A DNA stretch of 64,000 bases from Limisphaerales bacterium. Lineage in GTDB: Bacteria; Patescibacteriota; JACMRA01. How positions within the stretch are numbered: position 1 is the stretch's first letter; every line of letters begins with the position of its first letter. Positions 2-35,386 of this stretch are shown one piece after another. Position numbers and translations under genes: made by a program. The notes below the pieces were generated by a model. That model was not told the origin of the DNA. It did not search any database and saw only the letters and a list, made by a program, of their open reading frames with translations. Location of the stretch: the NCBI GenBank assembly GCA_044361365.1, contig JBIKIW010000001.1, positions 2,501-66,500 on the forward strand. Reading direction: 5' to 3'.

Positions 2-679
2 CAAGTTAAGAATTTGTATTTAGTTGCGAGCTGCCAAAATATTGGTGATTTTAAAACCGGAAAAGACTTTAGTTTGATCCAAAAAAATTGTGAAAATATC
101 ACCATTTACCATTCCAAAGATGATCAAGTTGTACCTTTTAGCGTGGCTCAAGAAATTGCTAGCAAACTACCTAAGGCAAAGCTGGTTGAATTTGAAAACC
201 GAGGGCATTTTGTGGAAGCAGAATTTGTGGAATTAAAGTCTCAAATTAGTGCGGATTTACGAGTTGAAAACAAGACAGATTTTGAGAAATTTTACCCGAC
301 TCAGGAAATGACAACAGCCAAAGAAATTTTTTATATTTGGATCGTGCGAATGATTATTTTAGGGAAATATTTTACCGGTAAAATTCCGTTTGAAAAGGTG
401 ATTATTACGCCTACAATTTTGGACGAAAAAGGTAGAAAAATGAGTAAAAGCTTGGGCAACGGTCTCGACCCGGTTGTAGCAATTGATCAGTTCTCTTCAG
501 ACAGTCTCAGGCTTGCGATGCTCGGTGGTATGATCCCAAACAGAAACATGAAAATGGGCGGAAAATTAGCCGAAAATATCATGCAAAAATACCGCAACTT
601 TGGGAATAAGATTTGGAATGTAGCTAGGTTTTTGGAGGGGAAGGAAGGGGAGAAGAAACAAGATTTTGATATAAAATAA
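2..679 (+). CDS. valS: Chimeric ORF, 5' partial. The C-terminal end of a YdeN/RBBP9-like alpha/beta serine hydrolase is fused in frame to a valyl-tRNA synthetase catalytic-core segment (KMSKS region).
   Basis: The frame is open to the window edge. Up to about nt 265 it reads like the end of a hydrolase (IYHSKDDQVVPF...FENRGHF). From about nt 266 the same frame reads ValRS core: FYPTQ, IFYIWIVRMI, GRKMSKSLGNGLDP (KMSKS loop), YRNFGNKIWNVARF. There is no stop codon between the two parts. Confidence 0.7.
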   Translation, partial: QVKNLYLVASCQNIGDFKTGKDFSLIQKNCENITIYHSKDDQVVPFSVAQEIASKLPKAKLVEFENRGHFVEAEFVELKSQISADLRVENKTDFEKFYPTQEMTTAKEIFYIWIVRMIILGKYFTGKIPFEKVIITPTILDEKGRKMSKSLGNGLDPVVAIDQFSSDSLRLAMLGGMIPNRNMKMGGKLAENIMQKYRNFGNKIWNVARFLEGKEGEKKQDFDIK

Positions 680-4028: not shown

Positions 4029-4847
4029 ATGCTACAAACTCAAAATTTATCGCCGGCTTCCATTTGGATTTTGCAAAAATATGTGGAATTAGAAAACAGA
4101 TTAGAAGAAAATTTGGTGACCTACGAATTAGCTCATTCGGTGGACGGTTTATACAAATTTTTGTGGGATTTTTATGCCGATTGGTATGTGGAATATATCA
4201 AAACTGACCCAAGTCAGGTGCCTTTTGCTAAAGATCTTTTTAAGCAATTTATAGTTACTCTAAACCCGTATTCACCGTTTGAAACTGAAGCCCTGTGGCA
4301 AGATTTTTTTGGAGAAAAAGAAAGTTTAGCTTTGGTGCAAAAAGATGTAAGTTGGGCTAAAAATATTTGGTCGCAGATTGATCAAAATAGGGTAGGTGAG
4401 TTCCAAACAATTGTGGATTTTATTTCAGATGTGAGATCTCTGAGGGGTTTATTTGCTATCGACCCGGCAGTTTTTTTGGAGGTAAATTCGTCCACCAAAT
4501 TGCTATCGGTTTATGCTGATTTTATAAAATCCAGCTCAAGAGTACACATTTTGGATCAAGAAGTTGAGGGTTTGTACGAAGTTGCTAGTCAAAATTATAT
4601 TTACAAAATTGATATTATTAAATACATTCCAGACTTCCAAAAAGAAATTAAACGAACTGAAAAAATCTTAGAAAGCCTAGAAAAGCAAATCAAAGCTTTG
4701 GAAAGTCAGCTACAAAATGAATCATTTTTGAAAAACGCTGAAGCTGAAGTAATAGCAGAAAAAAGACAAGATTTAAGGAATAGAGAGTTAGAAAAAACCC
4801 AGCAAGAGCAAAAACTAAAATACATAACAAGCTCGATTTTAAGCTAA
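4029..4847 (+). CDS. valS: Valyl-tRNA synthetase C-terminal fragment (anticodon-binding domain plus C-terminal coiled coil)
   Basis: SIWILQKYVELENRL...YKFLWDFYADWYVEYIK aligns to the ValRS segment that directly follows the NKLWNASRF motif. The heptad-like tail IKALESQLQNESFLKNAEAEVIAEKRQ is typical of ValRS. Confidence 0.85.
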   Translation: MLQTQNLSPASIWILQKYVELENRLEENLVTYELAHSVDGLYKFLWDFYADWYVEYIKTDPSQVPFAKDLFKQFIVTLNPYSPFETEALWQDFFGEKESLALVQKDVSWAKNIWSQIDQNRVGEFQTIVDFISDVRSLRGLFAIDPAVFLEVNSSTKLLSVYADFIKSSSRVHILDQEVEGLYEVASQNYIYKIDIIKYIPDFQKEIKRTEKILESLEKQIKALESQLQNESFLKNAEAEVIAEKRQDLRNRELEKTQQEQKLKYITSSILS

Positions 4848-11410: not shown

Positions 11411-11486
11411 TGGTGGGTATGGGTGGATTTGAACCACCGACCGCAGACTTATAAGATCTGTGCTCTAACCCCTGAGCTACATACCC
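11411..11486 (-). tRNA. tRNA-Ile (anticodon UAU), CCA encoded
   Basis: Sense strand: GGGTATG-TA-GCTC-AGGGGTTA-GAGC-A-CAGAT-CTTATAA-GTCTG-CGGTC-GGTGG-TTCAAAT-CCACC-CATACCC-A-CCA. This gives a clean cloverleaf of 76 nt. Confidence 0.75.
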
Positions 11487-14546: not shown

Positions 14547-17360
14547 TTACTTCGCCTCATTTTCCAAGATTTCAGCTGGAACTAGATCTGGAGTGACTTT
14601 GAAAATGGTTCGGGAAACTTCTTTATCTACCTCTTGTAAAAGATTGATGAAAATGTTTAAACCTTCTTCTTTAAATTCAGTAAGAGGGTCTTTTTGAGAG
14701 TAACCTCGAAGTCGTACAGCATCTTGTAAATGTTCGATTGTTACCAAATGTTCTGTCCACAAAATATCGATTGCTCGTAGGAAAATAAACCTAACCATCG
14801 CACCTTTTTCTACAGGAGTGTAGTCAGTCCATCTTTTATTCATTTGGAATTTGATTTTATCAAACAAAAAGCTAGCTACTCTTTTGTATTTGTATCTTTC
14901 ATCTTTCATCAAAACTTCCAAAATTTCCGAGTCAAAATCATGTAAAGAAACAACACTTTTTAGATCTTCGCTGGTAGTTTTTAGCTCTTTTTGGTAAATT
15001 TCAGCATTTTTTCTTTTTGGTGGCTGCACTTGACTTACAGCTCGTAAAGTTTCTCTTTGTAAAGATTTTTCAACTTCATCTTGCCATTCAAAACCATCGT
15101 TTAAAAGTACTTTTTTGCGTCTAGCATAGATTACACTTCGTTGGCGATTGATTACATCATCGTATTCGGTAACGTGTTTACGGATATCAAAGTTTTGTCC
15201 TTCAATTTTCTTTTGAGCCTGTTCGATCAACCAAGAAAGCTGTCCATTAGAAATTGGTTCATCATCAGCAATTGGTAAAATACTGTAGTACCCAACTCGG
15301 TCTCCTCCAAAAATTCTGAGGATAAAATCTTGTAAAGAAACATAAAACTGACTTTCTCCTGGATCTCCTTGTCTTCCAGCTCTCCCTCGTAACTGGTTAT
15401 CAATTCTTCGGCTTTCGTGCCTCTCACTTCCAATTACGTGCAAACCCCCTAAGCTTTTAACTTCTTCGTGTTTCTCTCTCCAATCTTCCATTTTTTCATG
15501 ATTTTCTGGTGGCTCGCCTCCAAGCTTGATGTCAATTCCACGACCTGCAATGTTGGTAGCTAAAGTTACAGCTCCTTTTTTACCAGCTTCAGCGATAATT
15601 CGGGCTTCTTGTTCGTGGTTTTTAGCGTTTAATAGTTGGTATTTTACCCCAGCTTCATCAAGATATTTAGCAAGTAGCGAATTTTTCTCGATGGAAGTTG
15701 TGCCAATCAAAATTGGCTGACCCTTAGCATTAATAGCTTTTACGTCTCTAGCAATTGCTTTGAATTTACCGTCTTCAGTTTTGAAAATTTTATCAACAAA
15801 ATCTTTTCTCACAATCGGTTTGTTTGTTGGGATTGTAACTACCAAAAGTTTGTAAATTTTGAACAATTCCTCTGATTCAGTGCTAGCAGTTCCAGTCATT
15901 CCGGCTAGTTTTTTGTATAATCGGAAGTAGTTTTGGAAGGTGATCGAGGCTGTAGTTTTGCTTTCTGGTTGAATATTTAGACCTTCTTTAGCTTCGATAG
16001 CCTGGTGTAAACCTTCGTTGTAACGACGACCAAACATCAATCGACCTGTGTTTTCATCTACAATAATAATTTCTCCATCTTTAGCGACATACTCTTTTTC
16101 TCGTTTAAATAGAGCTTGAGCCTTTAAAGCTTGGTTAAGGTGATGAACAATGGTTACATTTTCTACAGAATCGTATAAATGAGTAATGTTTAACATTCTT
16201 TCAATTTTCTCAACTCCTAATTCGGTTAGGGTTACAGTTCGGCGTTTTTCATCTACATCGTAGTCAAGATCTGGGTTTATTTTTGCAACAATTTTGGCGA
16301 AGTTTTTGTATTCTTCTGAAGAGTCTTTATCTTGAGCTGAGATGATAAGGGGAGTTCTGGCTTCGTCGATTAAAATAGAGTCAACTTCATCTACAATAGC
16401 TACATGGTGACCAGCTTTTTGAGATATTTCGCTAGGTGTGTTTGCCATGTTGTCACGCAAATAATCAAATCCAAATTCGGAATTTACTCCATAAACAATA
16501 TCGACAGGCTTATCTGCTTTTTCATCAAAATAAGCTCGTTTTCGATCGCAAGGAATAAGGTGTTTTACGTCCAAAACCGTGCGTGATTCTTGTTTCTCAC
16601 CATCTTCGTATGTTTCCAAAAGTCCAGCAGCTCGTTTCTTTTCAGAATTTTCATCACTCCCAGCTCCAAGTTTAAAGTAAAAACTAGCCTGGTTTTGAAT
16701 AACTCCAACAGTTAGTCCCAAAAAATTGTAAATTTGACCCATCCAGCTAGCACCAACACGAGCAAGGTAGTCATTTACAGTAACCAAGTGAACTTGATTT
16801 TTTTCAGGTAAAGCGTTTAGATAACCAACCAAGGTTGATACCAAAGTTTTTCCTTCTCCAGTACGCATTTCAGCAACCCGTCCTTCATGAAGCACCATTG
16901 CTCCAATAAGTTGAACAGGAAAGTGTTTTTGACCGATTGTACGGTGAGCCGCTTCTCTAACTACTGCAAAAGCCTCAGGTAAAAGCTCTTTTAGTTTCTT
17001 TTCAATTTCTTTTTCATCTTTAATCCCTTTCATGCGGTTTCGAAATTCTTGGGTCTTCCCTCTTAATTCCTCATCTGACAAAGCTTTAGTTTTTTCATCC
17101 AAATCCAAAACTTGTTGCACTACCGAATCGTACCTACCAATTTCTTTTTTCTCTCCAACTACACTACTAAAAAACTTGGAAATAAGACCTTTGTTTTTAT
17201 CGTTATGAGTGGTGGTTTTGTAGCTTATTGAGGTAGATTCTGGTTTAATTTCAGCAGAAATTTCTACTTTCATTTTTGGTTCTGTTTCGGTGATTTTGTC
17301 AGAAACTGGCTTCTTGGAAACAACTTTTTTGTGCTTTTTAGTCGTAGTAGTTTTATTCAT
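14547..17360 (-). CDS. secA: Preprotein translocase ATPase SecA
   Basis: MRTGEGKTLV Walker A, DEVDSILIDEARTPLIIS, TNIAGRGIDIKLGG, and the C-terminal HWD/IRA regions. It has a Lys/Thr-rich N-terminal extension of about 58 aa. Confidence 0.95.
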   Translation of the reverse strand: MNKTTTTKKHKKVVSKKPVSDKITETEPKMKVEISAEIKPESTSISYKTTTHNDKNKGLISKFFSSVVGEKKEIGRYDSVVQQVLDLDEKTKALSDEELRGKTQEFRNRMKGIKDEKEIEKKLKELLPEAFAVVREAAHRTIGQKHFPVQLIGAMVLHEGRVAEMRTGEGKTLVSTLVGYLNALPEKNQVHLVTVNDYLARVGASWMGQIYNFLGLTVGVIQNQASFYFKLGAGSDENSEKKRAAGLLETYEDGEKQESRTVLDVKHLIPCDRKRAYFDEKADKPVDIVYGVNSEFGFDYLRDNMANTPSEISQKAGHHVAIVDEVDSILIDEARTPLIISAQDKDSSEEYKNFAKIVAKINPDLDYDVDEKRRTVTLTELGVEKIERMLNITHLYDSVENVTIVHHLNQALKAQALFKREKEYVAKDGEIIIVDENTGRLMFGRRYNEGLHQAIEAKEGLNIQPESKTTASITFQNYFRLYKKLAGMTGTASTESEELFKIYKLLVVTIPTNKPIVRKDFVDKIFKTEDGKFKAIARDVKAINAKGQPILIGTTSIEKNSLLAKYLDEAGVKYQLLNAKNHEQEARIIAEAGKKGAVTLATNIAGRGIDIKLGGEPPENHEKMEDWREKHEEVKSLGGLHVIGSERHESRRIDNQLRGRAGRQGDPGESQFYVSLQDFILRIFGGDRVGYYSILPIADDEPISNGQLSWLIEQAQKKIEGQNFDIRKHVTEYDDVINRQRSVIYARRKKVLLNDGFEWQDEVEKSLQRETLRAVSQVQPPKRKNAEIYQKELKTTSEDLKSVVSLHDFDSEILEVLMKDERYKYKRVASFLFDKIKFQMNKRWTDYTPVEKGAMVRFIFLRAIDILWTEHLVTIEHLQDAVRLRGYSQKDPLTEFKEEGLNIFINLLQEVDKEVSRTIFKVTPDLVPAEILENEAK

Positions 17361-17613
17361 AACTAGATGATAGTAAATAATTTGGGAATTTGCTTTGGAG
17401 GTTGCTTTGGTACAGTTATTTTGTCAAGAAGTAAAGTAATAGTCGGTTGATTTAGATTAGGCTTTTGAAAATTGTGTCGCTTGTTTGATTTAATGAGAAA
17501 AGCTGTTTGATAAATTATTTTTGGGTTTGTTTAAAAAACGATGAAATGCGAAGTTAGTAGATTTAAGTTTTTGACTTTGACGAAGAAAAATAAACCGCAT
17601 AGCAGTTATTTAT

Positions 17614-20600
17614 ATGCCAAAAGATCTTCACCTTTTTGATAGTTACCAAAGAAAAGTTTTGCCGATCCAGTGCAGCGAAGAAGATAAACTAAAAATTTAC
17701 GGCTGTGGTCCAACAGTATATAATTATCAGTCTATTGGAAACATGCGAGCAGTCTGGTTACCGGATACAATTTCAAAAGTTGCTAAAATTGCCGGGTACA
17801 AAACTGAGTGGGTTAGTAACATTACCGATGTTGGGCATTTGGTGGATGATGGAGACGATGGTGAAGACAAAATCGAGAAAGGTGCCAAGCGAGAGCAAAA
17901 AACCGTGGAGGAAATTATCAACTTTTATGTACAAGATTTTAAGGATCAGTGCGGGGCATTAAACTTTGATTTGCCAGCTGGAAAATACCAACCAAAAGCT
18001 ACACAATATATTGGTGAACAAATGGTTTTGGCTTTGGAGCTACTGCGAGATGGGAAAGCTTACCTGACAGATGACGGGATTTATTTTGAGAATATCCCAC
18101 CAGATACAACATCTCCCCAACCCTTGTGGAACAGAGAAACACCCCCCCAACCCCCTTCAAAGGGGGAGTACATCAAGCTTACTAGTGTTCTTGAGGATAG
18201 GGATGTGTATTCTTCTACCTTTAGCCACCCCCCCAGCCTTCAAAGGGGGAGTACAAAGTCTAGGTTAGAACTTGCTCGGGAACACAAATTAAACAAAGAA
18301 GGTTGGGATTTTGTAGTTTATAACAATAAGTTGAATAAGTTTTCTAAAGAAATGCGAAAAAACCCCACGAAAGCGGAGAAAAAGTTTTGGGATGTTGTCC
18401 GTAAAGATAAGTTGTTGGGTGAATTTACCTGGAATCGACAAAAACCTATAGATAATTTTATAGCTGATTTTTACTGTAGGGAGTTGAAAGTGGTTATTGA
18501 AATTGATGGAGGTGTGCATAATTCTGAGCAAGCCAAAGGCTACGATAATGAGAGGGATAATATCCTAAGAGGTTTAGGTTTAGAAATGCTTAGATTTACA
18601 AATGATGAAATACTAGTTAATCCAAATTCAGTTTTGGCACAAATAAATGATTGGGCTAACTTATCACCTACGAGCTTTCAAGTCGAGAATACCCCCCCCT
18701 TGAGGGGGGTTGGGGGGATGTCTCCATTAAAGGGGTTAAGCCAAATTATTGAAACGATTCAAAATCTCCAAAAAGAAAAACCAAACAAACCTTTGATAAT
18801 AACTATCGACGGGCGAGGTGGGAGTGGAAAGTCAACTTTTGCTGAAAAATTGATTGAACTAATCCCAAATTCAGCTGCAATTGAACAAGACAAATTTTTG
18901 GAATTTATGAAAGGAATGGATACCAAATCTGACTCCTGGAACCATCGAAATTTTGAATTAGATAAACAATCTTTGCAGGAAGAATTGGAAAATCACAAAG
19001 ATAAAAAAGTGATAATCCTAGAAGGCATAAAAAGTTTTGCAAATATTGAATCTGATCTAAAAATTTGGCTTGATTCTAGTCAAAAAGATAACAAACAAAG
19101 AGCTAAAAAAAGAGATGTAAAAGGTGAAGTAAATTCAGATGGTTTTGAAATATTTTGGCAGGAGTTTGAGGTACATTCTCAAAAATATATTCAGGATTTT
19201 AAACCCGAGGAAAAAGCTGATTTCATAGTTTCGATAGAAGGTGATGGGTATGAGGTAATTTCAACTGATGACACAGAACTCGAAAAAATAGTTGGTACTA
19301 TTAATCGACTCAAAAAAGATAAAGGTGATAAACCAATTATAATAGCTATTGATGGTCGAGGCGGGAGTGGAAAGTCAATTTTAAGTAAGAAAATAGCTGA
19401 AAATCTCGAGGATGTAGAAGTTTTAGAATGTGATGATTTTTTTGATTTTGAAAAGCTAGATGAAAAGGTTTTTTTCTGGGATAAAGAAAGATTTAAAACT
19501 CAAATTCTAATACCACTGACTCAAGGCAAAGAAGCTATCTTTGAAAGCAATAATTGGATAGATCAAAAACTAGTCGGTAAAATAAATAAAACTGTGCAAT
19601 CAAAAAAATTTATTATACTTGATGGTTTGTGTACTTTGCAACAAGATTTGATCAAGTATTACGATCTTAATATTTGGGTTGAAAAAGAATTAGAATCATC
19701 ACTTCATGCCGCTAAAACACGAGATGTAAATGAGAGAAATAGAGCAGAACAAGAATTTCATGAATTGTGGGATAAATGGATTCCAGTTCAAGAGAAATAT
19801 ATCAATTTAGTAAAACCCCAGGAAAAAGCTGATATTATTATTTCTACTGAAAATGGTGGGTATGAGATTTTGGAAGATAGAACCAATCAAAACTACACCG
19901 GTCGTAACATAATCCAAACCGAAAAAAGAAATCCGCATGATTTTGCTTTGTGGAAATTTGTATCCGAAAATAGTTTGCAAAAATGGAAGTTTAATCAGTT
20001 TGAAAATACTGAAGATTTGATGATTGAGATTATTCAAACCCTCGATTCTAAAGATTACGATTTACCAAATAGATGGGGTTGCCCTGGTTGGCACAGTGAG
20101 TGCGTGGCGATGATTAGTGAGATACTTGGGCATCAGAGATTTTCTGGAAAGTTTGGGCATCTTCTCAAAGATAATTTGTATGAAATCGACATTCATACCG
20201 GCGGCGAAGATCATATCGATATTCACCACAAAAATGAAATTTTACAATCCAAAGCTCTTGGTTTTCATTTGTCCAAATATTGGGTTCACAACAAATTTGT
20301 GCTGGTTGATGCTAAAAAAATGAGTAAGAGTTTGGGGAATGTTTTTTTGGTTAAAGGCGATTTTAAAACAACAGGTTTTTATAGTTTCCAAAACCCGCCA
20401 ACTCAAGATTTTAGCGAGGAGTTTAAACAGCAGATTATTAAGAAATATAAGGAGCTGAAAATTTATGATTTGAATAAAAATCTAAGTGAAGTAGAAATAC
20501 CCCGTCAGTCTATGACTGCCACCCCTTCGCAAGCAAAGGGGAATATGGAGTTTGAAGAACAGTCCAAAAAAGAAAGTGTATTTTGGCAGAATTTTAGTTT

Positions 20601-21120
20601 CGACCCCATTGCTTACAGGTTGATGCTAATGGAACATCACTACACTGAACAGATGAATTTTACCTGGGAAAAGCTTTGGCAAAGCCAAATGAGACTCTGG
20701 AATTTGCGAAAAGATGCTGCTAGAATTATCAGTTTTGCAACTCAAAATAAAACTAAACCAGAAACCGATCAAAAACAAATTCAAATACTTTTGGACTATC
20801 TTTTAGATAATTTAGATACACCAAAATTTGTGGAAAAATACCAGAACTTTTTGGGAGATGTTATAAATGAAATTGCAAAAAATAATGTTTTAAACCCTAA
20901 AAATTTGGGAGCAATTCTATTTTGGGAAAAGGAACTTTTGAAGTTAAATTTTAATCCAAAAATATCACCTGAAGTTATTGAGTTAATCGAGCAAAGGCAA
21001 GAGGCAAAAATTGCCAAAGATTATCAAAAATCTGATCAAATTAGAGTTCAAATTCAGGCTCAAAATCTGCAAGTTGATGATTATAGTTGGGGTAGTGGAG
21101 TTTGGAAGAGATTAAATTAA
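17614..21120 (+). CDS. cysS: Cysteinyl-tRNA synthetase with two large in-frame insertions
   Basis: CysRS motifs: YGCGPTVYNY, RNPHDFALWK, GCPGWHSEC, DIHTGGEDHIDIHHKNE, KKMSKSLGN, MEHHYTEQMNF. The ORF is interrupted in frame at 18097-19890 (598 codons) and at about 20365-20592 (76 codons). Confidence 0.9.
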   Translation: MPKDLHLFDSYQRKVLPIQCSEEDKLKIYGCGPTVYNYQSIGNMRAVWLPDTISKVAKIAGYKTEWVSNITDVGHLVDDGDDGEDKIEKGAKREQKTVEEIINFYVQDFKDQCGALNFDLPAGKYQPKATQYIGEQMVLALELLRDGKAYLTDDGIYFENIPPDTTSPQPLWNRETPPQPPSKGEYIKLTSVLEDRDVYSSTFSHPPSLQRGSTKSRLELAREHKLNKEGWDFVVYNNKLNKFSKEMRKNPTKAEKKFWDVVRKDKLLGEFTWNRQKPIDNFIADFYCRELKVVIEIDGGVHNSEQAKGYDNERDNILRGLGLEMLRFTNDEILVNPNSVLAQINDWANLSPTSFQVENTPPLRGVGGMSPLKGLSQIIETIQNLQKEKPNKPLIITIDGRGGSGKSTFAEKLIELIPNSAAIEQDKFLEFMKGMDTKSDSWNHRNFELDKQSLQEELENHKDKKVIILEGIKSFANIESDLKIWLDSSQKDNKQRAKKRDVKGEVNSDGFEIFWQEFEVHSQKYIQDFKPEEKADFIVSIEGDGYEVISTDDTELEKIVGTINRLKKDKGDKPIIIAIDGRGGSGKSILSKKIAENLEDVEVLECDDFFDFEKLDEKVFFWDKERFKTQILIPLTQGKEAIFESNNWIDQKLVGKINKTVQSKKFIILDGLCTLQQDLIKYYDLNIWVEKELESSLHAAKTRDVNERNRAEQEFHELWDKWIPVQEKYINLVKPQEKADIIISTENGGYEILEDRTNQNYTGRNIIQTEKRNPHDFALWKFVSENSLQKWKFNQFENTEDLMIEIIQTLDSKDYDLPNRWGCPGWHSECVAMISEILGHQRFSGKFGHLLKDNLYEIDIHTGGEDHIDIHHKNEILQSKALGFHLSKYWVHNKFVLVDAKKMSKSLGNVFLVKGDFKTTGFYSFQNPPTQDFSEEFKQQIIKKYKELKIYDLNKNLSEVEIPRQSMTATPSQAKGNMEFEEQSKKESVFWQNFSFDPIAYRLMLMEHHYTEQMNFTWEKLWQSQMRLWNLRKDAARIISFATQNKTKPETDQKQIQILLDYLLDNLDTPKFVEKYQNFLGDVINEIAKNNVLNPKNLGAILFWEKELLKLNFNPKISPEVIELIEQRQEAKIAKDYQKSDQIRVQIQAQNLQVDDYSWGSGVWKRLN
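18140..18168 (+). repeat. Left terminal inverted repeat with internal hairpin cccccttcaaaggggg
   Basis: Read directly from the sequence; the hairpin spans 18151-18166. Confidence 0.7.
18226..18255 (+). repeat. Second, direct partial copy of the left repeat
   Basis: The 19-mer ccttcaaagggggagtaca is shared between 18154-18172 and 18237-18255. Confidence 0.7.
18691..18720 (-). repeat. Right terminal inverted repeat
   Basis: The sequence accccccccttgaggggggttggggggatg is the reverse-complement match to 18140-18168. Confidence 0.7.
20497..20544 (+). repeat. GC-rich two-hairpin element (about 48 nt), copy 1, in frame inside cysS
   Basis: ataCCCCGTCAGTCtatGACTGCCACCCCTTcgcaagcAAAGGGGAAt. The same architecture occurs at 34125-34172 and 34260-34310 on the opposite strand. 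Confidence 0.7.
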
Positions 21121-21122
21121 AT

Positions 21123-22136
21123 ATGAAAAAAATAATTTTTGTTTTTATTGTTTTATTACTATTAGCTTTATTTGTATTCGGTGGTTTTGTGCTGTATAAG
21201 AAATTTAAAATATCCGAAAACCAAAAGTCAGTAGCTAAAGTCTTTAACAACGAAATAAATGTTCAAAGAATTAAACCATCTCAAACTGATAAAGAAATTA
21301 ACGATCCGAATAATGATTATCTTGTGGCAACTTCTAAAATTTCAGAAAAAACAAATAAACTGGTTATTTTTCTTCCAGGGACTTTTGGCAATCCTGATGA
21401 CTACTCCTTGCTAAACTCATGGTTAGCAGATCAAGGTTATTATAGTATTTCTATTAGTTATCCAAATGATTCTGCAGTTGTGAGTGTTTGTAAAAACAGC
21501 TTTGACGAAGATTGTGCTGGTAAAATCAGAGAAGAGCGTTTTAGCGGCAAAGACAAAAGTGAATTGGTAAAAGTTAGCCAGTCTAATTCAATTGAAAATC
21601 GTATTCAAAAACTTTTAGTATACCTTAAGAAAAATGATAAAAACAACAACTGGTCACAGTTTTTAAAAAATGATGAGACTAATTGGTCAAATATTATTGT
21701 TTCTGGACATTCTCAGGGTGGTGGGATGGTAGCCTACATAGCTAAAAAAAGATTGGTTGATAGGGCGGTTATGTTTTCAGGGCCTGGAGATTGGGATTAC
21801 AAAACCGAAAAATCTTCTAAATGGCTTTACGAATCAAGTATAACTCCAGCAAACCGGTATTTTACAGTTAGGCACGTAAAAGAACCATCAACAGAAATCA
21901 TTCAGTCGAATTTTGAAGCTTTGGGTTTGTCAGAATTTGGTCCTGAAAAAGAATATACAGATTATTCTAGTCTAAATAATACACATCGGATATTACTAAA
22001 AATTGAACCAAAAGAAGCTAGTATAGGGATTTTTAACAATTTTCACTCTGCATCAGTTACTGACAAATTTACTCCAGTTGATAAAGATGGCAAGCCCATT
22101 TTAAATGATGTTTGGAAGTTTTTATTTTCAACCTAA
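21123..22136 (+). CDS. Secreted or membrane-anchored alpha/beta hydrolase
   Basis: Start at the ATG at 21123 (MKKIIFVFIVLLLLALFVF signal/anchor). Nucleophile elbow GHSQGG. Confidence 0.7.
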   Translation: MKKIIFVFIVLLLLALFVFGGFVLYKKFKISENQKSVAKVFNNEINVQRIKPSQTDKEINDPNNDYLVATSKISEKTNKLVIFLPGTFGNPDDYSLLNSWLADQGYYSISISYPNDSAVVSVCKNSFDEDCAGKIREERFSGKDKSELVKVSQSNSIENRIQKLLVYLKKNDKNNNWSQFLKNDETNWSNIIVSGHSQGGGMVAYIAKKRLVDRAVMFSGPGDWDYKTEKSSKWLYESSITPANRYFTVRHVKEPSTEIIQSNFEALGLSEFGPEKEYTDYSSLNNTHRILLKIEPKEASIGIFNNFHSASVTDKFTPVDKDGKPILNDVWKFLFST

Positions 22137-22161
22137 AGTTAATTCTATTTACTATTCTAAC

Positions 22162-22189
22162 TTGACAACCATACAACCAAAAGTATAAG
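22162..22189 (+). promoter_or_regulatory. Candidate promoter
   Basis: TTGACA (22162-22167), a 16-nt spacer, then TATAAG (22184-22189), upstream of the ORF at 22221. Confidence 0.4.
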
Positions 22190-22220
22190 TGCTGTTTGTA
22201 GATAAGAATTCAAATACAAA

Positions 22221-22610
22221 ATGCAAACTAAAAATTCTTCAAGCTTATCGAAAGTTAGTACCTATTCTTTAATAGTTAGTTTAGCTTTGGTTTTGTTTTC
22301 TTTAATTTCCTCACTGATTAGTTTTGTAGGCTCTTTTTTTATTTTTCAGTTTGGTTTTAAAGATAAATTTCTAGCTTTAGATTATACTCAGAAACTTAGC
22401 TCTGGTATTTTGGTGGTTGCTATTTTGATGGGGATTTCTTTATTTTCAGCCAACAATTTTTTGAGTGTTCGTATGGAAGAGATTGAAGAAAGTGTAGGTT
22501 CGGTTTTATTATCGATTTTATCACTCATTTTATCAACTCTACTATTGGTTCTTTTTTATTTTTCTTTTAGCTATTTTATCAGCTATTTAAGTACTCGTTT
22601 TTGGTCATAA
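22221..22610 (+). CDS. Integral membrane protein, unknown function
   Basis: 129 aa with four hydrophobic segments. The stop is 1 nt from the next ATG. Confidence 0.6.
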   Translation: MQTKNSSSLSKVSTYSLIVSLALVLFSLISSLISFVGSFFIFQFGFKDKFLALDYTQKLSSGILVVAILMGISLFSANNFLSVRMEEIEESVGSVLLSILSLILSTLLLVLFYFSFSYFISYLSTRFWS

Positions 22611-33532: not shown

Positions 33533-35386
33533 TTATTCTAATTCAAACATTGACTCAACTTCAGACTCCCACTCATCATGTATATTTTTAGCTACAGGTG
33601 ATGGAATTTGATCTTTATAAACTGGCACATTTGGATTAGAAAAACCTTCTGGAATTTGCTTATAAACTTCATAAAAAATCTTTTTCCCTGCAACCAAATT
33701 CAAATTATTTTCAGGTTCATCTTGAGTAATTTTTGGAGGTGGGGTTGGAGTGTCAAAATCTTGAATTTCGTACGATTCTTTAGGTGGTTCTTCGTAGCTA
33801 ATATCTTGAAAATTTTCTGGTTCAAATTTTGGATTTGGAGCTGTTGATTTTGCCCGAATTATATTTTCAATTTGAGGTGCAAATTTTAATTCAGAAGTTA
33901 AAAATTCTTTCAAAAAGTTTTGCAAAGTTGTCGACTTTAATTGGCTCAAAAAAAGATTGGTTGTGACACTAAAAATTGCCTTGTTATTTTCTACACTTTC
34001 TAACCTCAAATCGTGACCCAACATTTTTAAAATCGTAGGTGCGTTCGAAGCCTTCAACATCTTAGAAAAAAGTGAATTTGAGTTTGTATTTAAATCACTT
34101 TCTAGGTTGGAATTTTGAGTAAGCAATTCCCCTTTTGAAAGGGGTGGCACCGAAGGTGACGGGGCATGTTTGCCACTTTCAGATTCAACTAAATCAACTT
34201 TTTTTATGCTCGATAAATTTTCTTTTGATTCACTTTCATGCTTGGAACCTGGAGTCAATAATTCCCCTTTTTCAAAAGGGTTGGCAGCGATAGCTGACGG
34301 GGTATGTTTGTCGTTTTGAGAATAAGCAAAATCAACTTTTCTTACCTCTGAATTTACTACAGTAGATCTGTTCTCAACTGGCTTTTTTTTTACACTAACC
34401 ATTCCTTCTTTCTGATTCAAATTTGCCTGCAAAAGTGCAATTGTTTGAGCTATCGAAGTCACTGGTAATTTCCAACTTAAAACCTCAGCCGTAGTCGGAA
34501 CCAGGCTACCATAATCTGAATTTCCAGACAAAGTTTGGTCTAATAAAAATTCTAAAAATTGTCCCAAAAAAGTTTCCGCATCAAAGTTAATTTGAGTTAG
34601 TTTTTGTAAAAAGTTTTTATCTAAATTTTGACTTACAATTTTATCTGCAATTTCTACCAAAAAAGTTTCTGGAATTACACCCAAAATCTCAGCAGTTTTT
34701 TCAACCGAAAATTCATCCAAATTATAACTAGAAACTGTCTCCATGAGGTTGATTGCATCGCGTTGACTTCCTTCAGCTCTTTTAGCAATCAGCTCCAAAC
34801 TTTCTGTGTCAATTTTCAAAGTTTCAGCCTTAGCTATGAATTGTAATCTACCTACAATATTTTGAATTGTATGAGACGAAAGTGGAAGCTTGGTAAGCCT
34901 AGAAAGTACAGTAGGTAAAAGCTTTTCGGGATTGGTGGTGGCAAGCAAAAATACTACATGTTTTGGTGGCTCTTCTAGGGTTTTGAGTAATGCACTCATG
35001 GCACTTTTGGACAGCATGTGTACCTCGTCGATGATATAGATTTTGTACTTACCCGAAAGTGCTGGGGTGCTGGCGTTTTCAATAAGTTGTCTGATGTTAT
35101 CAATCCCGGTATTTGAGGCTGCATCTAGCTCGATAATATCAATTTTGGCTTCAGGGTAAGTTTCTACCTGGTTCAAAAGATTCGCAAAAATCCTGGCTAG
35201 TGTGGTTTTTCCAACTCCTCGTGAACCCGAAAAAAGATAGGCTTGTTTGATCAAATTTTTGGCGATTGCATTTTGCAAAACTGATTTTACTAACTCCTGA
35301 CCAACCACATCTTCAAAAGACTGGGGGCGATACTTGTTGTACCATGACATATACTTATTTCTTGGGTTAAAAATAACTTTAGTCAA
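33533..35386 (-). CDS. dnaX: DNA polymerase III gamma/tau subunit
   Basis: YRPQSFEDVVGQ, GSRGVGKTT, IYIIDEVHMLS, LLKTLEEPP, SRL. The linker region contains the tandem repeat listed below. Confidence 0.9.
   Translation of the reverse strand: MTKVIFNPRNKYMSWYNKYRPQSFEDVVGQELVKSVLQNAIAKNLIKQAYLFSGSRGVGKTTLARIFANLLNQVETYPEAKIDIIELDAASNTGIDNIRQLIENASTPALSGKYKIYIIDEVHMLSKSAMSALLKTLEEPPKHVVFLLATTNPEKLLPTVLSRLTKLPLSSHTIQNIVGRLQFIAKAETLKIDTESLELIAKRAEGSQRDAINLMETVSSYNLDEFSVEKTAEILGVIPETFLVEIADKIVSQNLDKNFLQKLTQINFDAETFLGQFLEFLLDQTLSGNSDYGSLVPTTAEVLSWKLPVTSIAQTIALLQANLNQKEGMVSVKKKPVENRSTVVNSEVRKVDFAYSQNDKHTPSAIAANPFEKGELLTPGSKHESESKENLSSIKKVDLVESESGKHAPSPSVPPLSKGELLTQNSNLESDLNTNSNSLFSKMLKASNAPTILKMLGHDLRLESVENNKAIFSVTTNLFLSQLKSTTLQNFLKEFLTSELKFAPQIENIIRAKSTAPNPKFEPENFQDISYEEPPKESYEIQDFDTPTPPPKITQDEPENNLNLVAGKKIFYEVYKQIPEGFSNPNVPVYKDQIPSPVAKNIHDEWESEVESMFELE
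34125..34172 (-). repeat. GC-rich two-hairpin element, copy 2 (inside dnaX)
   Basis: Sense (minus) strand: caaacatgCCCCGTCACCttcGGTGCCACCCCTTtcaaAAGGGGAAtt, translated as KHAPSPSVPPLSKGEL. Confidence 0.7.
34260..34310 (-). repeat. GC-rich two-hairpin element, copy 3 (inside dnaX, 135 nt from copy 2)
   Basis: Sense (minus) strand: caaacataCCCCGTCAGCtatcGCTGCCAACCCTTttgaaAAAGGGGAAtt, translated as KHTPSAIAANPFEKGEL. Confidence 0.7.

What the first reader, a model, noticed from the sequence alone, without database searches (positions are those of the whole stretch)
18097..19890. cysS carries a 598-codon in-frame insertion of foreign domains inside its catalytic domain
The gene is one uninterrupted 1168-codon ORF. 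CysRS similarity stops after ...DDGIYFENI (18096) and resumes at NYTGRNIIQTEKRNPHDFALWK (19891). This is the connective region between the two Rossmann halves, where characterised CysRS enzymes have only a short linker.

The insert encodes a DUF559 endonuclease fold and two P-loop kinase-like modules, with no stop codon. The junctions lack intein hallmarks: there is no Cys/Ser/Thr as the first insert residue and no His-Asn before the C-terminal junction. The extra roughly 600 residues would therefore stay in the enzyme.

The zinc-ligand contexts (CGPT, GWHSEC, HTGGEDH...HHKNE) and KMSKS remain intact, which argues that the host gene is still under selection. I know of no described aaRS with a selfish-nuclease-plus-kinase cargo in its CP region.
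Basis: partly seen in the sequence, partly recalled or inferred. Interest (0 to 1): 0.85.

Follow-up and report, generated by a model that had tools for sequence, protein, structure and literature searches.

The report
CysRS gene carrying nested in-frame cargo
An essential translation enzyme (cysteinyl-tRNA synthetase) of a Patescibacteria bacterium really does carry about 600 extra in-frame codons in one loop: an old, conserved kinase plus recently inserted nuclease and kinase modules, in a clade whose CysRS genes carry varied inserted cargo.

Summary
ORF 17614-21120 (+) is 1168 codons. Codons 162-759 (18097-19890) interrupt the CysRS catalytic domain with no stop.

It is not an assembly artefact. 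At least 10 near-identical 1168-aa variants occur in JGI, Logan, ENA and NCBI assemblies. No intein or intron signature was found, and the gene is not decaying: against relative P0002, dN/dS is 0.09 for the CysRS parts and 0.14 for the shared kinase.

The insert is a nested composite, not one foreign block:
- An old uridine-kinase-family module, shared by a sub-clade.
- A recent DUF559 endonuclease cassette (18094-18738), bracketed by 35-nt G/C palindromic inverted repeats.
- A recent 612-nt block (19201-19812) that adds a paralogous second kinase.
- A 66-nt solo palindrome (20486-20551), in frame in another loop.

Relatives have the same loop empty or filled with kinase, HAD, Ser-hydrolase, NUDIX or DUF218. 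Other loops carry DUF559, Y1/RayT transposase, HAD or APH. SHMT is interrupted the same way in two related database proteins.

Best reading: a working CysRS whose permissive surface loops accumulate whole genes and palindromic mobile elements in frame. I rate it a new variant of known kinds (domain insertion; in-frame palindromic elements). Expression as one polypeptide is untested.

The parts
17614..21120 (+). Whole cysS ORF, 1168 codons plus stop, encoding one continuous polypeptide
   Evidence: the ORF listing. The identical protein occurs in JGI and Logan assemblies. At least 9 further 1168-aa variants exist.
17614..18093 (+). CysRS N-terminal Rossmann half and the start of the CP domain (residues 1-160). 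It includes the Zn ligand C31 and a HIGH-equivalent motif reading SIGN (nt 17731-17742).
   Evidence: TIGR00435 best stretch at residues 5-159. 95% aa identity to P0002 with dN/dS 0.069. AF2 pLDDT is mostly above 90. It superposes on CysRS structures at about 2 A over about 160 residues.
18094..18738 (+). DUF559 cassette, 645 nt and in frame. It is absent from the close relatives L091/P0003 and L003/P0002, where a linker of about 15-20 codons sits instead.
   Evidence: DNA alignment to L091 shows 600 nt of gaps here. Protein alignment to P0002.
18136..18170 (+). Left arm of the cassette's inverted repeat (GAAACACCCCCCCAACCCCCTTCAAAGGGGGAGTA, translated TPPQPPSKGEY). A partial copy lies at 18108-18123 and a second direct copy at 18225-18255.
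   Evidence: the repeat finder I1, D3 and D17. Within the window the palindrome core matches only around the DUF559 module, apart from one 2-mismatch match at 34129-34144; 5 matches against 0.23 expected.
18328..18648 (+). DUF559 / Vsr-like PD-(D/E)xK endonuclease core (residues 239-345), with the family's invariant residues retained (D...E-I-D-G...H).
   Evidence: PF04480 E 3e-31, 108 bits. Alignment A1 with free-standing homologues. PDB 3HRL, E 7.7e-17.
18690..18724 (+). Right arm of the inverted repeat (TACCCCCCCCTTGAGGGGGGTTGGGGGGATGTCTC, translated TPPLRGVGGMS). It is 86% complementary to the left arm, with 519 nt between them.
   Evidence: the repeat finder I1. The same arm architecture flanks DUF559 in L086, L087, L089 and L090.
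18739..19269 (+). Linker helix plus kinase module 1 (uridine-kinase family; P-loop GRGGSGKS from nt 18811). It is shared with P0002 and P0003 at 82-84% aa identity.
   Evidence: blastp. dN/dS 0.14 with dS 0.67 against P0002. AF2 pLDDT about 90. The kinase profile matches uridine kinases in the PDB.
19201..19812 (+). Window-specific block of exactly 612 nt (204 codons): the tail of kinase 1, a linker and the body of kinase 2. Its breakpoints lie inside the conserved C-terminal kinase motif (KYIxxxKPxEKAD).
   Evidence: A single 612-nt gap in the alignment to the syntenic L091. Direct repeat D1, 72 nt at 74% identity with 612-nt spacing.
19270..19887 (+). Kinase module 2 (residues 553-758). It is a paralogue, only 32% identical to module 1, and is closest to a module in the SHMT protein P0022 (42%).
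   Evidence: PF00485 E 1.7e-12 and NF005115. blastp. The P-loop, D-x-F and lid R-x-x-R-D motifs are present.
19888..21117 (+). CysRS C-terminal part: the rest of the CP domain, the second Rossmann half (GWHSEC, HTGGEDH, HHKNE, and KMSKS at nt 20317-20331), the helical domain and the anticodon-binding end.
   Evidence: PF01406 best stretch at residues 806-918. Invariant columns in A2. dN/dS 0.07-0.14. pLDDT mostly above 90.
20486..20551 (+). 66-nt in-frame solo palindromic element in the loop after KMSKS ('site D'). It contains ACCCCTTCGCAAGCAAAGGGG, translated ...TATPSQAKGN.... It is absent from L091, and P0002 also lacks the extra segment at this site.
   Evidence: 66-nt gap in the alignment to L091. 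Sequence. Hairpin fold. GC is 0.50 against about 0.32-0.35 in the flanking sequence.

Best explanation
This is a working, selection-maintained cysteinyl-tRNA synthetase of a Patescibacteria (CPR) bacterium. Its surface loops, above all one hairpin of the CP1 domain between the two Rossmann halves, act as permissive landing sites. Whole free-standing-type genes and palindromic mobile elements have been fixed there in frame.

The 598-codon insert was built in steps:
1. An ancestor of a sub-clade acquired one uridine-kinase-family domain in this loop. That domain has since been kept under purifying selection.
2. A self-contained DUF559 (Vsr-like nuclease) cassette, bounded by G/C-rich palindromic inverted repeats, landed in the linker upstream of that kinase.
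3. A 612-nt block carrying a paralogous second kinase was added by recombination within the conserved kinase C-terminal motif.
4. A 66-nt solo copy of a similar G/C palindrome landed in a second loop.

Because cysS is presumably essential, only stop-free insertions whose length is a multiple of three, in tolerant loops, survive. That explains why every block is in frame.

Shown: the anatomy, the order of events, the selection, the repeats and the diversity across the clade.
Inferred: the whole ORF is translated as one polypeptide, the cargo domains fold as independent beads extruded from CP1, aminoacylation is retained, and the DUF559 nuclease together with its palindromes is the agent or target of the insertion.
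For: Real and fixed:
- The identical or near-identical 1168-aa gene occurs in many independent assemblies.
- It has 0 stops in frame, against 18-81 in the other frames.

Host functional:
- CysRS dN/dS is 0.089 at dS 0.53 against P0002.
- The Zn ligands and much of the core are invariant in the clade, and a KMSKS-type motif is present in every member.
- Both CysRS halves are modelled with pLDDT above 90, and the best PDB matches are CysRS structures.
- No plus-strand terminator lies inside the gene, and promoter-like matches are at chance level.

Composite origin:
- Against the syntenic L091 (SecA upstream, 85-87% nt identity), the window has three discrete extra blocks of net 600, exactly 612, and 66 nt.
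- Kinase 1 is 82-84% identical to the single kinase of P0002 and P0003, with dN/dS 0.14.
- Kinase 2 is only 32% identical to kinase 1.

Mobile cassette:
- A 35-nt inverted repeat brackets DUF559 in the window.
- In the two other DUF559 insertions whose DNA was examined, at two other loops of relatives' CysRS, the longest inverted repeat also brackets DUF559: L086 34 nt, L087 26 nt. A fourth case, P0388, was seen at protein level only.
- Free-standing DUF559 genes in a Desulfuromonadaceae genome and another Patescibacteria genome carry the same arm architecture: a C-run, then AA, then a CCCCC-N6-GGGGG hairpin.
- Solo copies of the L087-type palindrome sit in frame at two loops of P0011's CysRS.
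- A Y1/RayT transposase flanked by inverted palindromes sits in frame in P0013.

Permissive hotspot:
- The DGIY-to-TGR distance is 25-52 residues in empty alleles, about 200-250 with one cargo, and 404, 600 and 607 with several.
- The cargo types are kinase, HAD, Ser_hydrolase, NUDIX, DUF218, APH, DUF559 and Y1_Tnp.
- The host-core tree requires repeated gains and swaps, for example P0004 (kinase) against P0007 (HAD) at 76% core identity.
- The cargo families exist as free-standing genes.
Against: - There is no transcript, proteome or enzymatic data, so translation as one 1168-aa protein and retained CysRS activity are inferred.
- The HIGH motif reads SIGN. The first histidine is replaced by serine, which is unusual for a class I synthetase.
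- TIGR00435 scores 227 bits against a cut-off of 340, because the match is split.
- The AF2 model has pTM 0.59, and its DUF559 region has pLDDT below 50 because no alignment depth was available there. I had no coordinates or PAE, so I could not verify that the two Rossmann halves reassemble or that the cargo points away from the tRNA.
- The population variants are too similar to test selection on DUF559 or on kinase 2.
- I could not see the whole genome. A second cysS elsewhere, and the genome-wide copy number of the palindrome, are both unknown. The window itself holds no second cysS, and the palindrome core matches elsewhere in it only once, with 2 mismatches.
- No target-site duplication could be defined at the cassette ends.
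Confidence: 0.75

Rival explanations
1. Functionally integrated multi-enzyme. The kinase modules, and the HAD, NUDIX or hydrolase modules in relatives, would be adaptive parts of the synthetase and more than tolerated passengers. Examples would be coupling nucleotide salvage to an essential, constitutively expressed protein, regulating CysRS, or acting on the tRNA or aminoacyl end that CP1 faces.
For: - The kinase is retained across a sub-clade whose CysRS cores are only 56-62% identical.
- It is under purifying selection, with dN/dS 0.14.
- Its catalytic motifs are intact: the P-loop, D-x-F and the lid arginines.
- Most non-nuclease cargo families are small-molecule kinases or hydrolases. The same kinase, together with APH and GNAT modules, interrupts SHMT in the same lineage.
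- The kinase C-terminal strand just before re-entry into CysRS is the most conserved part: 74% nt identity between paralogues that are 32% identical at protein level.
Against: - The cargo at the same site is interchangeable between close relatives (kinase against HAD) and is absent in a sister clade. That argues against a role required for aminoacylation.
- The relatives of the kinase are ordinary free-standing proteins of about 180-220 aa in the uridine-kinase family.
- Purifying selection on the kinase shows that it is useful. It does not show that it works together with CysRS.
Confidence: 0.25
2. The insert is removed before the mature enzyme forms. The route would be an unrecognised protein-splicing element, RNA splicing or excision guided by the inverted repeats, or translational bypass. 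The cell would then make a normal-sized CysRS.
For: - The DUF559 family belongs to the same PD-(D/E)xK clade as Vsr-like homing endonucleases. Those reside in group I introns or sit between split-intein halves (PMC3424549, PMC3239194, PMC2677866).
- The inverted repeats could bring the cassette ends together in the RNA.
Against: - No intein or Hint family is among the 25 best Pfam matches. The junctions lack an N-terminal Cys/Ser and lack His-Asn followed by Cys/Ser/Thr.
- An Rfam E-value scan of 16500-22500 finds no intron or other RNA family.
- Every inserted block is a multiple of three and free of stops. Kinase 1 evolves under codon-level purifying selection in the host frame. Neither would be needed for an intron or a bypassed segment.
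- The inverted repeats bracket only the DUF559 part, not the kinases.
Confidence: 0.04
3. This is not the housekeeping CysRS. It would be a diverged paralogue, MshC-like or moonlighting, that can afford insertions because a canonical cysS elsewhere in the genome charges tRNA-Cys.
For: - HIGH is degenerate: SIGN here, and (H/S/Q)IGN across the clade.
- The NCBIfam cysS score is below the curated cut-off.
- MshC structures appear among the fold matches.
- Only 64 kb of the genome is visible.
Against: - All four Zn/cysteine-pocket ligand positions (C31, C830, H871, E875) and many other core positions are invariant, and a KMSKS-type motif is kept in every clade member.
- The C-terminal helical and anticodon-binding region typical of CysRS is present and confidently modelled, and the best sequence and fold matches are CysRS. 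By my own recollection, MshC lacks that region.
- dN/dS of 0.09 is typical of an essential gene.
- No second cysS lies in the window or in any relative's locus.
- By general knowledge, Patescibacteria genomes are small and usually carry one gene per synthetase.
Confidence: 0.06
4. Assembly chimera or sequencing artefact that joins unrelated genes.
For: The window is probably a metagenome-assembled sequence. One 8.5-kb JGI contig shows the ORF broken between the two kinase modules (P0370 and P0371).
Against: - At least 10 distinct 1168-aa variants exist, produced by different assemblers and archives (JGI, Logan, ENA, NCBI), and one variant is on 12 contigs.
- The JGI and Logan CDS each differ from the window by 2 nt.
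- Relatives share parts of the architecture with co-linear junctions.
Confidence: 0.01

Closest known systems
Rickettsia palindromic elements (RPE) and other intragenic MITEs inserted in frame in protein-coding genes
   Same: Short palindromic mobile DNA is fixed inside essential or metabolic ORFs and translated as extra peptide in tolerant surface regions. The review PMC10969869 reports 44 in-frame RPE insertions in R. conorii. Here the 66-nt element at 20486-20551, the repeat arms at 18136-18170, 18225-18255 and 18690-18724, and the solo copies in P0011 behave this way.
   Different: - The lineage is different (Patescibacteria), and I saw no resemblance to RPE by eye, though I made no direct comparison. 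The motif here is a C-run, AA, then a CCCCC-N6-GGGGG hairpin.
- In this case the palindromes also bracket a complete nuclease gene, and the same loops hold whole enzymes.
- Genome-wide copy number could not be measured.
REP/REPIN elements with their RAYT (Y1) transposase ('REPtrons')
   Same: A single nuclease-type gene is flanked by inverted copies of a short palindrome, and that palindrome also occurs as solo copies (PMC2817692, PMC3337134). In relatives P0013, P0016, P0017 and P0395 an actual Y1_Tnp domain sits in frame in CysRS. P0013's copy keeps the HUH motif and the tyrosine, and is flanked by an inverted palindrome pair in L088.
   Different: - In the window the associated protein is a DUF559 PD-(D/E)xK nuclease, not a HUH-Y1 transposase.
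- REPs are by definition extragenic, whereas these copies are intragenic and translated.
- No experiment links DUF559 to the repeats.
Vsr-like homing endonucleases (I-Bth0305I family) in group I introns, inteins and 'fractured genes'
   Same: They belong to the same PD-(D/E)xK clade as DUF559. The survey PMC3424549 groups VSR, DUF559 and DUF2726 together with the structures 3HRL and 3R3P. They are also selfish nucleases lodged inside conserved host genes (PMC3239194, PMC2677866).
   Different: No intron or intein surrounds the nuclease here. It is read through as part of the host protein, and it sits in a linker, not at a conserved catalytic-site motif.
Lineage-specific domain insertions in class I aaRS and other housekeeping enzymes (CP1 editing domains of Leu/Ile/ValRS; insertions in RNA polymerase and GyrB)
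   Same: An independently folding domain is nested in the connective polypeptide between the Rossmann halves, or in a surface loop, of an essential enzyme (general knowledge; PMC11515920, PMC2995079 and PMC13114784 were listed).
   Different: - Those insertions are ancient, fixed and functionally integrated.
- Here the cargo is made of unrelated stand-alone enzymes and mobile-element genes.
- It is stacked up to three deep and differs between close relatives.

Membership tests
Cysteinyl-tRNA synthetase (class I; PF01406 / TIGR00435) | Profile match to the CysRS catalytic domain | tested here: met
   PF01406 E 2.7e-50, 172 bits against a cut-off of 27. TIGR00435 E 3.9e-67, but 227 bits against a cut-off of 340 because the match is split into 3 stretches. 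The spliced core best matches Borrelia CysRS 3SP1, E 1.7e-37.
Cysteinyl-tRNA synthetase (class I; PF01406 / TIGR00435) | HIGH signature motif | tested here: not met
   The window reads S-I-G-N at residues 40-43. The clade has (H/S/Q)IGN. HIGN also occurs in Borrelia CysRS (alignment), but loss of the first His is unusual.
Cysteinyl-tRNA synthetase (class I; PF01406 / TIGR00435) | KMSKS motif and the Zn/cysteine-pocket ligands (E. coli C28, C209, H234, E238; numbering recalled from memory) | tested here: met
   KMSKS lies at residues 902-906. C31, C830 (GWHSEC), H871 and E875 (HHKNE) are invariant in A2.
Cysteinyl-tRNA synthetase (class I; PF01406 / TIGR00435) | Aminoacylation of tRNA-Cys | not testable with these tools
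   Needs an enzyme assay. Only indirect support is available: dN/dS 0.089.
Intein | Hint/splicing domain blocks, Cys/Ser as the first insert residue, and His-Asn followed by Cys/Ser/Thr at the C-junction | tested here: not met
   The insert starts with Pro and ends ...TNQ before Asn. No intein or Hint family is among the 25 best Pfam matches shown.
Group I / group II intron | Match to intron covariance models, with no need for the host frame to be preserved | tested here: not met
   An Rfam E-value scan of 16500-22500 gives 0 matches. The insert is stop-free in the host frame, and kinase 1 is under codon-level selection.
DUF559 / Vsr-like PD-(D/E)xK endonuclease (PF04480) | Profile match and conserved catalytic core (D...E-x-D...H) | tested here: met
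   PF04480 at 108 bits against a cut-off of 20.6. All columns that are invariant in A1 are, by definition, kept in the window copy. 3HRL E 7.7e-17.
DUF559 / Vsr-like PD-(D/E)xK endonuclease (PF04480) | Nuclease activity and its DNA target | not testable with these tools
   No biochemical function for this family was found in the searchable literature. The link to the flanking palindromes is inferred.
Uridine kinase / PRK family (PF00485) | Profile match, P-loop, substrate Asp (D-x-F) and lid arginines | tested here: met
   PF00485 at 48 bits against a cut-off of 22 for module 2. Module profile A3 against the PDB: uridine kinase 9Y3V 9e-14, 1RZ3, UCK2. The motifs are visible in A3. The substrate is unknown.
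In-frame palindromic mobile elements (RPE-like / MITE) | Short palindromic unit, present or absent between close relatives, inserted in frame | tested here: met
   The 66-nt element is absent from L091, and P0002 lacks the extra segment at the same site. Hairpin folds. Solo copies lie in frame in P0011.
In-frame palindromic mobile elements (RPE-like / MITE) | Many copies dispersed in the same genome | tested here: inconclusive
   Within the 64-kb window, the palindrome core (up to 3 mismatches) matches around the DUF559 module plus one 2-mismatch match at 34129-34144, which I did not examine. The diverged site-D copy was found by eye. The rest of the genome is not available.
REPtron (REP + RAYT) | Y1 HUH transposase flanked by inverted REPs | tested here: not met
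   The window has no Y1_Tnp. This feature is met only in relatives (P0013/L088; P0395).

The most novel reading that the evidence does not exclude
In this Patescibacteria clade the surface loops of essential enzymes (CysRS CP1, and SHMT too) may work as genuine integration hotspots. Palindromic repeat elements and their associated nucleases (DUF559, RayT) would insert, stack and exchange whole enzyme-coding cassettes in frame. This would be a protein-level cassette array: a way for tiny genomes to acquire genes and express them constitutively as part of an indispensable protein. DUF559 would then be the nuclease partner of a widespread, undescribed REP-like repeat family.
Probability: 0.2. Interest if true: 0.85.

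Novelty: new variant of a known kind. Interest (0 to 1): 0.66.

Why it matters
- **Tolerance of an essential enzyme.** If the 1168-aa protein is made and active, a class I synthetase can carry about 600 residues of unrelated enzymes and a nuclease inside its catalytic domain. That marks the CP1 hairpin as an exceptionally permissive site, useful for engineering insertions.
- **Domain accretion caught in progress.** Close relatives show empty, single, double and triple cargo states, with datable insertion blocks. This links mobile palindromic elements to the origin of multidomain proteins.
- **A lead on DUF559.** It gives this large uncharacterised family a concrete, testable hypothesis: that it is the nuclease partner of a conserved G/C palindrome.
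- **Annotation.** Such genes fall below curated cysS cut-offs and are named as three fused functions, so genome-completeness and metabolic inferences for CPR bacteria can be misled.

Tried and rejected
- **Genome scan.** The clade alignment produced generic patterns (PGWHSECV, NITDVGHL).
- **Composite alignments A4 and A5.** These were meant to give DUF559 and kinase 2 alignment depth for structure prediction, but MAFFT scattered the short DUF559 homologues. I therefore used A6, which leaves those regions shallow, and the DUF559 part of the model is uninformative.
- **Foldseek on the full model.** The alignments that span the insert have about 20 A rmsd, so they do not show whether the Rossmann halves reassemble.
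- **PADLOC and PHROGs on the three cargo modules.** Only weak matches came back, so I dropped the idea of a defence system or a phage origin.
- **Population variants.** They are too similar to test selection on DUF559 or on kinase 2.
- **Recent tandem duplication of the kinase.** Rejected, because the two modules are only 32% identical.
- **Genome-wide habit of chimeric genes.** Ten other large ORFs in the window look ordinary.
- **My first DNA alignments.** These covered the cassette's 3' junction and site D. The global alignment drifted at the 3' junction and my site-D coordinates were offset. Both were redone against L091.
- **Literature searches.** None found a description of CysRS inserts in CPR bacteria or of a link between DUF559 and palindromes. 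The library is incomplete, so this is absence of evidence only.


Full report
**1. The observation**

The window has one ORF at 17614-21120 (+) of 1168 codons. Pfam and NCBIfam split the CysRS match into stretches, with best stretches at residues 5-159 and 806-918. Between them they place DUF559 (residues 239-345, E 3e-31) and two P-loop kinase modules at about 386-506 and 563-746 (PRK/uridine-kinase family).

Positions 18097-19890 are 598 codons. They have 0 stops in frame, against 18-81 in the other five frames. From base composition the chance of this is about 5e-23.

**2. Not an artefact**

The identical protein is encoded on a 27.9-kb JGI contig and on a separately assembled Logan contig. 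Each CDS differs from the window by 2 nt. The 90% identity cluster contains at least nine more distinct 1168-aa variants from JGI, Logan, ENA and NCBI. One is on 12 contigs and another is on a 76.5-kb NCBI contig. All of them keep the frame.

**3. Not an intein, intron or pseudogene**

- The insert begins with Pro and ends ...TNQ before Asn, and no Hint or intein family is among the 25 best Pfam matches.
- A permissive Rfam scan of 16500-22500 finds nothing.
- No plus-strand terminator-like site lies in the gene, and promoter-like matches are at chance level.
- Against the closest diverged relative (P0002, locus L003), dN/dS is 0.089 for 505 CysRS codons (dS 0.53) and 0.14 for the shared kinase (dS 0.67).
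- The Zn/cysteine-pocket ligands (C31, C830, H871, E875) and much of the core are invariant across an 18-member clade alignment, and every member keeps a KMSKS-type motif.
- The spliced core matches Borrelia CysRS 3SP1 best.
- An AlphaFold2 model gives pLDDT mostly above 90 for both CysRS parts and about 90 for kinase 1. It gives 55-85 for kinase 2 and below 50 for the DUF559 region, which had no alignment depth (pTM 0.59).
- The model's best PDB matches are CysRS structures (1U0B, 8QHP, 1LI5, 6UJD, 3SP1). The N-terminal half superposes at about 2 A.

**4. The insert is a nested composite**

L091 (protein P0003) is syntenic with the window: SecA lies upstream on the minus strand. It is 85-87% identical in nucleotides over the shared parts. 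Relative to it, the window has three discrete extra blocks:

- **18094-18738.** This is 600 nt of gaps, replacing a linker of about 45 nt. It is the DUF559 cassette.
- **19201-19812.** This is exactly 612 nt. It holds the tail of kinase 1, a linker and the body of kinase 2. Its breakpoints lie inside the conserved C-terminal kinase motif, which is also the 72-nt direct repeat D1.
- **20486-20551.** This is 66 nt in the loop after KMSKS. It contains the palindrome ACCCCTTCGCAAGCAAAGGGG.

Kinase 1 is 82-84% identical to the single kinase of P0002 and P0003. Kinase 2 is only 32% identical to kinase 1, and its nearest relative in the retrieved set is a module in an SHMT protein (42%). P0002 has a HAD domain where the window has kinase 2, and a 20-residue linker where the window has DUF559.

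**5. The DUF559 part is a self-contained, repeat-bounded unit**

- A 35-nt inverted repeat (18136-18170 and 18690-18724, 86% complementary) brackets it. Each arm is itself a G/C hairpin. Extra left-hand copies lie at 18108-18123 and 18225-18255.
- The palindrome core gives 5 matches in the window against 0.23 expected. Four of them are around the DUF559 module and one, with 2 mismatches, is at 34129-34144.
- Two other DUF559 insertions, in two other loops of relatives' CysRS, are bracketed in the same way: P0005/L086 with 34 nt and P0015/L087 with 26 nt. P0388 is a fourth DUF559 case, seen at protein level only.
- The window's left arm is nearly the same sequence as L086's right arm.
- The nearest DUF559 relatives are free-standing genes of 123-219 aa, at most about 55% identical. 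Several encode the same repeat-derived peptides (TPPSPPL.GG, KGR.GEG, PPL.RGG).
- In a Desulfuromonadaceae genome (L089) and in another Patescibacteria genome (L090), the gene is flanked by inverted copies with the same architecture: a C-run, then AA, then a CCCCC-N6-GGGGG hairpin.
- P0011's CysRS has solo copies of the L087-type palindrome in frame at two loops.
- All family-invariant residues are kept in the window copy. The only solved relative is 3HRL.
- The PD-(D/E)xK survey PMC3424549 groups DUF559 with Vsr and with the homing endonuclease I-Bth0305I.

**6. A clade-wide pattern**

The closest CysRS relatives are 655-1187 aa. Using conserved anchors, the distance from DGIY to (Y/F)TGR falls into classes:

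| Distance (residues) | Members |
|---|---|
| 25-52 | many members (empty site) |
| about 200-250 | one cargo domain |
| 404 | P0002 (kinase + HAD) |
| 600 | P0019 (NUDIX + Ser_hydrolase + HAD) |
| 607 | this window |

Other loops also carry cargo: Y1/RayT transposase (P0013, P0016, P0017, P0395), HAD (P0016), APH (P0395) and DUF559 (P0005, P0015, P0388). The RayT of P0013 keeps the HUH motif and the tyrosine, and it is flanked by an inverted palindrome pair.

A neighbour-joining tree of 522 core columns shows a kinase-bearing clade with one member swapped to HAD (P0004 against P0007, 76% core identity). Its sister clade has the site empty, and the outgroups carry other cargo.

The exhaustive search of 1.84 billion representatives shows that, of the roughly 30 closest representatives, many are 500-600 aa and about ten are 660-1187 aa. 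Ordinary CysRS genes of the same sequence subtype in GTDB genomes span the whole query in about 1.35-1.4 kb, so they have no insert.

The cargo families exist as free-standing genes:
- uridine-kinase-family proteins of about 180-220 aa;
- small DUF559 genes;
- a free-standing homologue of P0005's Ser_hydrolase cargo at window 5-250.

Two SHMT proteins from the same searches (P0021, P0022), whose kinase modules are among the closest relatives of those in the window gene, are interrupted after residue about 190 by kinase, GNAT and APH blocks. They resume with the PLP-lysine motif.

**7. Mechanism**

Shown:
- The order and discreteness of the insertions.
- The in-frame state of every block.
- Purifying selection on the host and on the old kinase.
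- The repeat-bounded nature of the DUF559 unit.
- The recurrent, varied occupation of the same loops.

Inferred:
- The ORF is translated whole.
- The cargo folds as independent domains extruded from CP1.
- CysRS activity persists.
- Because cysS is presumably essential, selection filters insertions to in-frame, stop-free events in tolerant loops.
- The palindromes together with DUF559 (and RayT in relatives) provide the insertion or recombination activity.

The alternative that the kinases are functionally coupled to CysRS is open (about 0.25). It does not exclude the main reading.

**8. Caveats**

- The HIGH motif reads SIGN here, and (H/S/Q)IGN across the clade.
- The NCBIfam cysS score is below the curated cut-off.
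- Only 64 kb of the genome is visible. No second cysS is in it, but one elsewhere cannot be excluded.
- Selection on DUF559 and on kinase 2 could not be measured, because the variants are too similar.
- No model coordinates or PAE were available.
- No target-site duplication was definable.

**9. Novelty**

In-frame palindromic elements in coding genes are known (RPEs; PMC10969869). So are REP/RAYT systems (PMC2817692, PMC3337134), Vsr-like homing endonucleases (PMC3239194, PMC2677866) and domain insertions in housekeeping enzymes.

I found no description of the following:
- a synthetase whose CP1 loop holds stacked, exchangeable stand-alone enzymes together with a nuclease cassette;
- DUF559 genes bounded by a conserved palindrome family;
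- a RayT read through in frame inside a host protein.

I therefore rate it a new variant of known kinds, with moderately high interest.

Noticed in passing
not in window; proteins P0021 (1364 aa) and P0022 (1204 aa): These serine hydroxymethyltransferases, whose kinase modules are among the closest relatives of those in the window gene, are interrupted after residue ~190 by a cargo block of roughly 750-900 residues. P0021 carries kinase + GNAT + kinase + APH, and P0022 carries kinase + kinase + APH. The SHMT part resumes with the PLP-lysine motif TTHKT. Nested cargo is therefore not restricted to CysRS.
   Followed up: partly
window 17731-17742 (residues 40-43): The class I HIGH signature reads SIGN. 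Across the clade the first position switches between His, Ser and Gln in a pattern that does not follow the core tree.
   Followed up: partly
not in window; proteins P0024-P0120: CysRS proteins of about 720-740 aa carrying a glycosyltransferase family 2 domain (PF00535) are common. The ones that carry a source name are from Chloroflexota, Dehalococcoidia or SAR202. This looks like a separate, widespread CysRS fusion.
   Followed up: no
not in window; P0370/P0371 on one 8.5-kb JGI contig: In one assembly of the same species the ORF is broken between kinase 1 (...KKVI) and kinase 2 (VQSKKFII...), and about 190 residues are missing. This is either an assembly collapse of the two kinase modules or a real deletion or frameshift allele.
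   Followed up: no
window 5-250 (ORF 14-679, +): This region encodes a free-standing homologue (40% identity over 84 aa) of the Ser_hydrolase domain that is nested inside the CysRS of relative P0005.
   Followed up: partly
window 11411-11486 (-): ARAGORN calls a tRNA-Ile with anticodon TAT. From general knowledge this is an uncommon way for bacteria to read AUA, which is usually done with a lysidine-modified CAU anticodon.
   Followed up: no
L088 3751-3770 / 4291-4310; proteins P0013, P0016, P0017, P0395: A Y1 (IS200/RayT-type) transposase domain is read through in frame inside CysRS, and P0013's copy keeps HUH and Tyr motifs. In L088 it is flanked by an inverted palindrome pair (TTAACTGAGGGCTTTAGCCC). 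P0016 has extra copies of the repeat-encoded peptide LTEGFS.
   Followed up: partly
L089 1537-1570 / 2064-2097; L090 1450-1472 / 1928-1950: Free-standing DUF559 genes in a Desulfuromonadaceae genome and in another Patescibacteria genome are bracketed by inverted copies of the same kind of G/C palindrome as in the window. This suggests a widespread unit of DUF559 plus repeat. I found no description of it in the searchable literature.
   Followed up: partly
L091 2760-3059 and 3001-4983: The closest syntenic relative's cysS is called as two overlapping ORFs, with a frameshift near codon 97. This may be a sequencing error in a Logan contig or a disrupted allele.
   Followed up: no
window 14547-17360 (-): SecA carries an N-terminal extension of about 65 residues, rich in Lys, Thr and Ser (MNKTTTTKKHKKVVSKKP...), ahead of the SecA_DEAD domain.
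   Followed up: no
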